From: a virus
Direction: 5' to 3' (one strand)
Virus genome (UHGV): UHGV-1978634
Length of the DNA: 39,633 nt
This document shows positions 1 through 451 of this stretch, in pieces; within the stretch, counting starts at the first letter, position 1, and every line of letters begins with the position of its first letter. A program made the translations under genes and the position numbers. The notes beneath the pieces were generated by a model that was given only the letters and a program-made list of their open reading frames with translations, was not told the origin of the DNA and searched no databases.

Positions 1-451
1 TTCAAGGGCAGCGAATCGCCATTCGATGAAGATGCGCCGTATCAGGCCGGAGCATGGGCTGATGAAGTCGTGCAGGGCGACAACGTTCGCACTATTGGCG
101 ATGTATTCCGCAATAAGCGAGCGCAATTCTATTACGCGCTGGCTGACAGGCTGTATCTGACATATCGGGCGGTTGTTCACGGTGAGTATGCAGAGCCCCG
201 ACGACATGCTGAGTTTCGACAAAGAAGCGATAGGCGAGAAGATGCTGGAGAAGCTGTTTGCAGAACTGACGCAGATTCAGCGCAAATTCAATAACAACGG
301 GAAGCTGGAGCTTATGACTAAGGTCGAAATGAAGCAGAAGCTCGGTATTCCATCTCCTAACCTGGCTGATGCGCTGATGATGTGTATGCATTGCCCGGCA
401 TTGGTCCGCGAAGAAACTGAAATATACGTTCCCTCATCCTCCGGTTGGTAA
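1..451 (+). CDS. Terminase large subunit, C-terminal portion (runs in from before the window); reading frame switches from frame 1 to frame 2 at the C4 run 196-199
   Basis: Frame-1 translation from nt 1 (..GDNVRTIGDVFRNKRAQFYYALADRLYLTYRAVVHGEYAEP) and frame-2 ORF 173..451 (..DDMLSFDKEAIGEKMLEKLFAELTQIQ..) are both protein-like and join only across the cccc run; stop at 449-451 overlaps portal start. Confidence 0.8.

What the first reader, a model, noticed from the sequence alone, without database searches (positions are those of the whole stretch)
1..451. Large terminase also frameshifted at a C homopolymer
Frame 1 from nt 1 is protein-like up to ..VHGEYAEP, and frame 2 is protein-like from ..DDMLSFDKEAIGEK onwards; they join only across cccc at 196-199. 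A second essential gene broken at a homopolymer makes a systematic sequencing artefact more likely than two independent lethal mutations.
Basis: seen in the sequence. Interest (0 to 1): 0.5.

Follow-up and report, generated by a model that had tools for sequence, protein, structure and literature searches.

The report
Terminase frame break: stray extra G
The phage's DNA-packaging enzyme gene looks broken only because this contig carries one extra G, 195 bases from its end; that G is missing from every related genome checked, so it is almost certainly a sequencing or assembly error.

Summary
The frame switch is real. Frame 1 (nt 1-194) and frame 2 (nt 196-448) together encode the C-terminal 149 residues of an Sf6 gp2-type large terminase. 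With nt 195 removed they are 100% identical to the crystallised Sf6 gp2 nuclease domain.

The C run is not what changed. CCCC (196-199) has the wild-type length, as in 70 of 101 homologous loci. The extra base is G195, just 5' of the run. No homologue carries it: 0 of 101 loci, none of 343 E. coli records, and no hit in three public-collection scans.

The window is a whole JGI/IMG contig, the attP form of a phage that also sits as an argW prophage in E. coli GCA_052515165.1. Against that prophage the 39,633 nt show 0 substitutions and exactly 6 one-base indels:
- +G195 in terL
- G5->G4 in the coat gene
- four within 394 nt at 25.4-25.8 kb

The contig ends also omit 158 nt of terL.

Six indels with no substitutions, one beside a contig end and four in a cluster, indicate consensus errors. 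The artefact verdict is supported. A systematic homopolymer cause is not: only 2 of 477 runs of 4 or more differ, and none of the 45 runs of 6 or more. This is ordinary.

The parts
1..194 (+). Large terminase (terL, Sf6 gp2 type), codons 322-385 plus the first two bases of codon 386, in frame 1. The contig starts inside the gene.
   Evidence: The sequence is 100% identical to Sf6 gp2 and PDB 5C10 once nt 195 is removed.
195..195 (+). The single extra G that causes the frame break. It turns codon 386 from GAC into GAG and shifts everything downstream by +1.
   Evidence: It is absent from 101 of 101 homologous loci, from every E. coli record (no 100% match among 343), and from exact scans of viral, genome and metagenome contigs.
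196..199 (+). Its length is wild-type.
   Evidence: 70 of 101 loci have the same CCCC; the otherwise identical prophage has CCCC.
196..451 (+). terL from the last base of codon 386 to codon 470 plus the TAA stop (449-451), in frame 2. It contains the nuclease active-site residues K428, N441 and D444.
   Evidence: Active-site residues are taken from PMC4678813.
38829..39633 (+). terL codons 1-268 (ATPase domain and the start of the nuclease domain, including D244) at the other end of the contig. The 158 nt covering codons 269-321, which include D296, are missing between the two contig ends.
   Evidence: Pfam PF04466 Terminase_3, E = 8e-42.
38404..38832 (+). Small terminase (Sf6 gp1 type), overlapping the terL start by 4 nt.
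   Evidence: ORF; PF20901 Sf6_terminase on the identical protein.
454..2580 (+). Portal gene, intact, 708 aa, starting 2 nt after the terL stop.
   Evidence: The exact protein occurs on at least 1000 contigs.
3490..4760 (+). Coat gene, broken by a one-base deletion in a G run. GGGG at 4152-4155 is GGGGG in all intact homologues.
   Evidence: (28 of 28 loci have G5), and (the same G5->G4 in three error-prone Logan assemblies).
25432..25825 (.). Cluster of four more private one-base indels: -A in AAAA (25433-25436), -T at 25670/25671 (CCG[T]GTA, intergenic), +T at 25778/9 and +T at 25823-25825. They affect a 56-aa gene and a 140-aa gene (Sf6 gp34 homologue) on the minus strand.
   Evidence: The chance of such clustering under uniform scatter is about 5e-5.
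18878..18894 (.). attP core. The 17 nt are shared by both prophage junctions, which shows the contig is the excised or virion form of the phage.

Best explanation
Window 1-451 is the 3' end of an ordinary, functional Sf6 gp2-type large terminase gene. The frame break comes from one spurious G at nt 195, a consensus or assembly error in a thinly supported stretch 195 nt from the contig end. That same weak spot left 158 nt of terL unassembled between the two ends. It is one of six indel-type errors in the contig. In the real phage the sequence is GCA GAC CCC GAC GAC (A-D386-P-D-D). It encodes an intact RNase H-like nuclease domain that cuts concatemeric DNA during headful packaging.

Shown: the identity, position and uniqueness of the extra base, and the indel-only difference pattern. 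Inferred: that the cause is technical. No reads were available.
For: 1. The whole contig aligns to one E. coli prophage (GCA_052515165.1, loci L142, L144, L146) with 0 substitutions in 39,633 nt and exactly 6 one-base indels. Natural divergence is dominated by substitutions.
2. +G195 is private to this contig. It is absent from 101 of 101 loci, there is no 100% match among 343 E. coli records, and three collection scans gave 0 hits.
3. It lies 195 nt from a contig end that is itself an assembly failure, with 158 nt of terL missing.
4. Four other indels fall within 394 nt (P about 5e-5). That points to local low quality.
5. The companion coat break, G5->G4, recurs in three unrelated Logan assemblies that carry further homopolymer indels.
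6. Downstream of the break the gene shows no decay. Nt 196-451 are identical to the prophage, and the repaired protein is 100% identical to Sf6 gp2 structures 5C10 and 4IDH.
7. The contig is in attP form, so the phage was excised and probably active.
8. The break would remove K428, N441 and D444 of the nuclease active site, so a real break would abolish packaging.
Against: No reads, coverage figures or platform information could be obtained. The contig's sample was not retrievable.

An inserted non-repeat base is not the typical error of flow-based or nanopore chemistry.

The attP form could also come from an excised, replicating but packaging-defective element.

One of the six indels (25433-25436) lies in an A/T tract whose length also differs among other E. 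coli assemblies in public collections. So not every difference is necessarily an error.
Confidence: 0.9

Rival explanations
1. The +G is a genuine, very recent frameshift mutation in a packaging-defective copy of the phage. The element can still excise and replicate but has lost terminase, and also coat.
For: The frame break is in the deposited contig, not introduced later. Other frameshift products of this contig, P0001 and P0046, are recorded for a single JGI/IMG contig of 39,633 nt. Excision and replication do not need terL or coat.
Against: Six indels and no substitutions against an independent prophage is not a natural mutation spectrum. The position next to a contig end and the clustering of four indels point to a technical cause. 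The coat indel recurs in unrelated noisy assemblies. There is no further decay anywhere in 39.6 kb.
Confidence: 0.06
2. One reading: a miscounted C homopolymer, with one C too many.
For: Deleting any one C of 196-199 also restores the frame and gives ...YAEPDDML, differing only by D386E. The break does abut a 4-base run.
Against: It needs two events, C->G at codon 386 plus an extra C, where a single G insertion explains everything. The otherwise identical prophage and 70 of 101 loci have GAC followed by the same CCCC. No homologue has Glu at position 386.
Confidence: 0.02
3. The +G is real and is tolerated because ribosomes slip +1 on the newly created CCC-CG motif (GAG CCC CGA CGA). That would yield some full-length terminase carrying only D386E.
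For: CCC-C(G) is an experimentally studied +1 slippery motif for E. coli tRNAPro, with up to about 1% shifting at the second codon (PMC4519876). The predicted shifted product is full length.
Against: The site is private to this contig and is not conserved in any of 101 homologues. The reported 1% applies to the second codon, which that paper calls the most shift-prone position; this site is codon 387. It cannot rescue the coat break, which needs a -1 shift and stoichiometric amounts of protein. The indel-only pattern already explains the site as an error.
Confidence: 0.01
4. A programmed frameshift or natural two-ORF organisation of terminase in this phage group.
For: None beyond the two open frames.
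Against: All homologous loci and annotated genomes encode a single 470-aa ORF with no shift. The crystal structure of Sf6 gp2 is a single chain continuous across residue 386.
Confidence: 0.005

Closest known systems
Shigella phage Sf6 gene 2 protein (large terminase; PDB 4IDH, 4IEE, 5C10, 5C12), Lederbergvirus
   Same: The repaired C-terminal 149 aa are 100% identical. The intact terL of the matching prophage, which equals the window apart from G195 and the 158-nt gap, is identical to Sf6 gp2 at all 470 residues. The synteny is the same: terS, terL, portal, scaffold, coat. The active-site residues D244, K428, N441 and D444 are encoded.
   Different: This contig has one extra G at codon 386 and lacks codons 269-321. 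Both are best read as assembly defects. Elsewhere the genome is a different mosaic from Sf6: another tailspike, gtrABC in place of oac, and different early genes.
argW prophage of E. coli GCA_052515165.1 (contig DBKBKR010000001.1), also seen in Logan runs DRR784582, DRR784688 and SRR27905034
   Same: It is the same phage. All 39,633 nt align with 0 substitutions, and attP in the window corresponds to attL and attR in the prophage.
   Different: The prophage has intact terL (470 aa) and coat (423 aa). The window differs by six one-base indels and lacks 158 nt of terL.
Indel-type consensus errors in draft or long-read assemblies
   Same: The differences are indels only. They are concentrated at a contig end and in one short AT-rich stretch. 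The G5->G4 under-call recurs in other noisy assemblies.
   Different: The error at this particular site is an inserted non-repeat base, not a change in run length. The long runs of 6-7 bases are all correct. The platform is unknown.

Membership tests
Sf6 gp2 / PBSX-type large terminase (Pfam Terminase_3 + Terminase_3C) | N-terminal packaging ATPase domain | tested here: met
   Window 38829-39632 matches PF04466 Terminase_3, E = 8e-42.
Sf6 gp2 / PBSX-type large terminase (Pfam Terminase_3 + Terminase_3C) | C-terminal RNase H-like nuclease domain | tested here: met
   After removing nt 195 the sequence is 100% identical over 149 aa to the Sf6 gp2 nuclease domain structures 5C10 and 4IDH. The Pfam Terminase_3C match is below its cutoff on this fragment (22.5 bits against 26.7).
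Sf6 gp2 / PBSX-type large terminase (Pfam Terminase_3 + Terminase_3C) | Acidic metal-binding triad D244, D296, D444 | tested here: inconclusive
   D244 lies in the 5' fragment and D444 in frame 2. D296 lies in the 158 nt absent from the contig. The triad is defined in PMC4678813.
Sf6 gp2 / PBSX-type large terminase (Pfam Terminase_3 + Terminase_3C) | One continuous ORF between the small terminase and portal genes | tested here: not met
   The synteny is met. As written, the ORF is interrupted by +G195 and by the contig break. Every homologue is continuous.
Homopolymer-length sequencing error | Run length differs from that of otherwise identical references | tested here: not met
   terL site: C4 in the window and C4 in the identical prophage. 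The coat site does meet this feature: G4 against G5.
Homopolymer-length sequencing error | Errors are genome-wide and increase with run length | tested here: not met
   2 of 477 runs of 4 or more differ, and 0 of 45 runs of 6 or more. There is a mild enrichment: 2 of 6 indels lie in runs of 4 or more, P = 0.037.
Programmed +1 ribosomal frameshift | Shift site conserved among homologues | tested here: not met
   None of 101 loci has the shifted arrangement.
Programmed +1 ribosomal frameshift | Slippery motif at the junction | tested here: met
   CCC-CG is created in the 0 frame. The motif is described in PMC4519876. Its presence here is a by-product of the insertion.
Programmed +1 ribosomal frameshift | Measured frameshifting that produces full-length protein | not testable with these tools
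   This needs a reporter assay or mass spectrometry.

The most novel reading that the evidence does not exclude
The extra G is real, and the phage survives because tRNAPro slips +1 on the accidentally created CCC-CG, followed by two CGA codons. That would produce enough full-length D386E terminase, an enzyme needed in only a few copies per capsid, to keep packaging going. It would be a natural case of a lethal frameshift in an essential phage gene rescued by spontaneous ribosomal slippage.
Probability: 0.01. Interest if true: 0.45.

Novelty: not a real feature. Interest (0 to 1): 0.05.

Why it matters
It matters mainly for data hygiene. Taken at face value, this contig would be annotated with a truncated terminase and a split coat protein, and might be scored as a defective or 'novel' phage. 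Yet its sequence is otherwise identical to a common, intact E. coli prophage.

There is also a caution about method. A frame break next to a homopolymer is not necessarily a homopolymer error, and the way to tell is to compare with near-identical references. The terminase gene itself tells us nothing new about the biology.

Tried and rejected
- Exact scans for the +G variant (30-mer) in viral contigs, genome contigs and metagenome contigs all gave 0 hits. So neither the source contig nor any second carrier was found there.
- I tried to recover the sample and platform through the look-up of encoding contigs with the frameshifted coat fragment P0001. It is not on record, so no read-level or technology information was available.
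- Exact protein look-ups of the possible terL fragment gene calls (window 1-291, 173-448, 188-448, 38829-39632) found nothing in the collection.
- A programmed or conserved frameshift was rejected on conservation.
- A mosaic patch from a diverged allele, as an explanation of the indel cluster at 25.4-25.8 kb, was rejected because the patch contains no substitutions.
- Low GC explains the cluster region only in part (39-40% against 46% for the genome). It does not explain the terL site (52-53% GC).

Full report
**What is at the coordinates**

Window 1-451 translates in frame 1 as FKGSESPF...AVVHGEYAEP, followed by out-of-frame residues to a stop at 292-294. In frame 2 it reads ...DDMLSFDKEAIGEK...SSSGW, with the stop at 449-451. 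The portal gene starts at 454.

**Identity of the gene**

Megablast of window 1-600 finds Sf6, HK620, N7, Gally and other Lederbergvirus genomes at 97.7-99% identity, and 223 E. coli genomes with full-length matches. The annotation in each is large terminase followed by portal. Every full-length match spans 599 nt of the subject against 600 nt of the window, so the window carries one extra base. In Sf6 the gene is gp2 (420-1832, 470 aa), and window nt 1 corresponds to Sf6 nt 1383.

**Which base is extra**

Alignments with Sf6 and with the nearest E. coli prophage place the gap at window nt 195: window GCAGA[G]CCCCG against GCAGACCCCG.
- Across 101 homologous loci fetched from public phage, E. 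coli and IMG/VR records, the segment is always 7 nt: AGACCCC in 70, AGACCCA in 27, AGATCCC in 3 and GGACCCC in 1. Only the window has 8 nt, AGAGCCCC.
- None of 343 E. coli records that carry this 91-nt segment matches the window at 100%.
- Exact scans for the +G 30-mer in viral, genome and metagenome collections gave no hit.

**Consequence if the break were real**

Removing G195 gives a 149-aa C-terminus that is 100% identical to the crystallised Sf6 gp2 nuclease domain (5C10, 4IDH and others). The break falls at D386. Downstream of it lie K428, N441 and D444, which are part of the two-metal active site (D244, D296, D444) described for gp2 (PMC4678813). A genuine break would therefore inactivate the nuclease and stop packaging.

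**The context that decides the matter**

The window is an entire JGI/IMG contig. Two of its frameshift products, P0001 and P0046, are recorded for exactly one contig of 39,633 nt.

Its gene order runs terL 3' end, portal, scaffold, coat, tail and ejection genes, tailspike, gtrCBA, int, attP, early genes, lysis, terS, terL 5' end. That is the excised or virion (attP) form, opened inside terL.

The same phage sits as an argW prophage in E. coli GCA_052515165.1 and in several Logan assemblies.
- Window 1-18894 and 18878-39633 align to that prophage end to end with 0 substitutions.
- There are exactly six one-base indels: +G195; -G in GGGGG at 4152-4156 (coat); -A in AAAA at 25433-25436; -T at 25671; +T at 25778/9; +T at 25823-5.
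- The two contig ends map 158 nt apart in terL (codons 269-321, including D296), so that stretch simply failed to assemble.

**Why this points to an artefact**

- Six differences that are all indels, with no substitution in 39.6 kb, is not a natural mutation spectrum. It is the signature of an indel-prone consensus.
- +G195 lies 195 nt from a contig end that is itself an assembly failure.
- Four of the other indels fall within 394 nt. The probability of that under uniform scatter is about 5e-5.
- The coat G5->G4 deletion recurs in three unrelated Logan assemblies, on two different alleles. Each of those carries further one-base indels, mostly in homopolymer runs.
- There is no secondary decay downstream of either break.

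**Why the 'systematic homopolymer' explanation fails**

- The window has 477 runs of 4 or more, 143 of 5 or more and 45 of 6 or more. Only two runs differ from the reference (G5->G4 and A4->A3), and none of the runs of 6-7 does.
- Two of the six indels (+G195, -T25671) are not in any run. Two more only lengthen runs of 1-2 T.
- There is a mild enrichment in runs of 4 or more (2 of 6, P = 0.037), but no systematic effect.

**Rivals**

- A genuine recent mutation in a packaging-defective element cannot be excluded without reads. It has to explain the indel-only pattern and the position at the contig edge. I give it about 6%.
- A miscounted C run needs two events and a Glu386 that no homologue has. 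About 2%.
- A +1 ribosomal slip is mechanistically conceivable. The insertion happens to create CCC-CG, a studied tRNAPro slippery motif with up to about 1% shifting at a second codon (PMC4519876), and the shifted product would be full length with only D386E. But the site is private to this contig, and the coat break could not be rescued in the same way. About 1%.
- A programmed frameshift is refuted by conservation.

**Caveat**

One of the six indels (25433-25436) lies in an A4-TA-T6 tract whose length also differs among other E. coli genomes. There it alternates between a 56-aa gene and a 77-aa ORF. That one difference could be a genuine polymorphism. This does not affect the terminase site.

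**Verdict**

The frame break is real in the record, but it is an error of the record. The gene is an ordinary Sf6 gp2-type large terminase.

Noticed in passing
window 39633 / 1 (the contig ends): The two contig ends map 158 nt apart inside terL (codons 269-321, 57.6% GC, including catalytic D296). The contig is a nearly closed circular, attP-form genome with a small unassembled gap and no terminal overlap.
   Followed up: yes
window 4152-4155 (coat gene 3490-4760): The coat gene is split (227 aa + 173 aa ORFs) by G5->G4. The same deletion occurs in three unrelated Logan assemblies (SRR22784951, ERR14114762, SRR8365115) that also carry other one-base indels, mostly in homopolymer runs. This is a recurrent under-call at this run.
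   Followed up: yes
window 25432-25825: Four private one-base indels lie within 394 nt of a 39-40% GC stretch. They break a 56-aa gene (25348-25518, minus strand) and the C-terminus of a 140-aa gene (Sf6 gp34 homologue, 25758-26180, minus strand). One of the four is intergenic.
   Followed up: partly
window 25425-25445: The length of the A4-TA-T6 tract varies among public E. coli prophages. T6/A4 gives the 56-aa gene, while T5/A4 gives a 77-aa ORF (P0048, 21 contigs). The window's T6/A3 also gives a 77-aa ORF. It is unclear which form is functional, or whether these are errors in the other assemblies too.
   Followed up: partly
L143 (Logan DRR784688) 945-950, equivalent to window 39618: An independent assembly of the same prophage has its own private one-base deletion in terL (GTTAAGC -> GTTAGC), which splits the gene into 270 + 199 aa. 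This is another example of sporadic indels in raw public assemblies.
   Followed up: no
window 14715-18894: A gtrA/gtrB/gtrC-type O-antigen glucosylation cassette (minus strand) lies between the tailspike and an IntS-type integrase. The 17-nt attP core is at 18878-18894, and the prophage copies sit at argW next to yfdC. This looks like a probable serotype-converting module.
   Followed up: partly
window 22747-23325 (minus strand): A 192-aa HNH endonuclease ORF (PF13392 on the identical prophage protein) is embedded among the early-left genes. It may be a mobile homing-endonuclease insertion.
   Followed up: no
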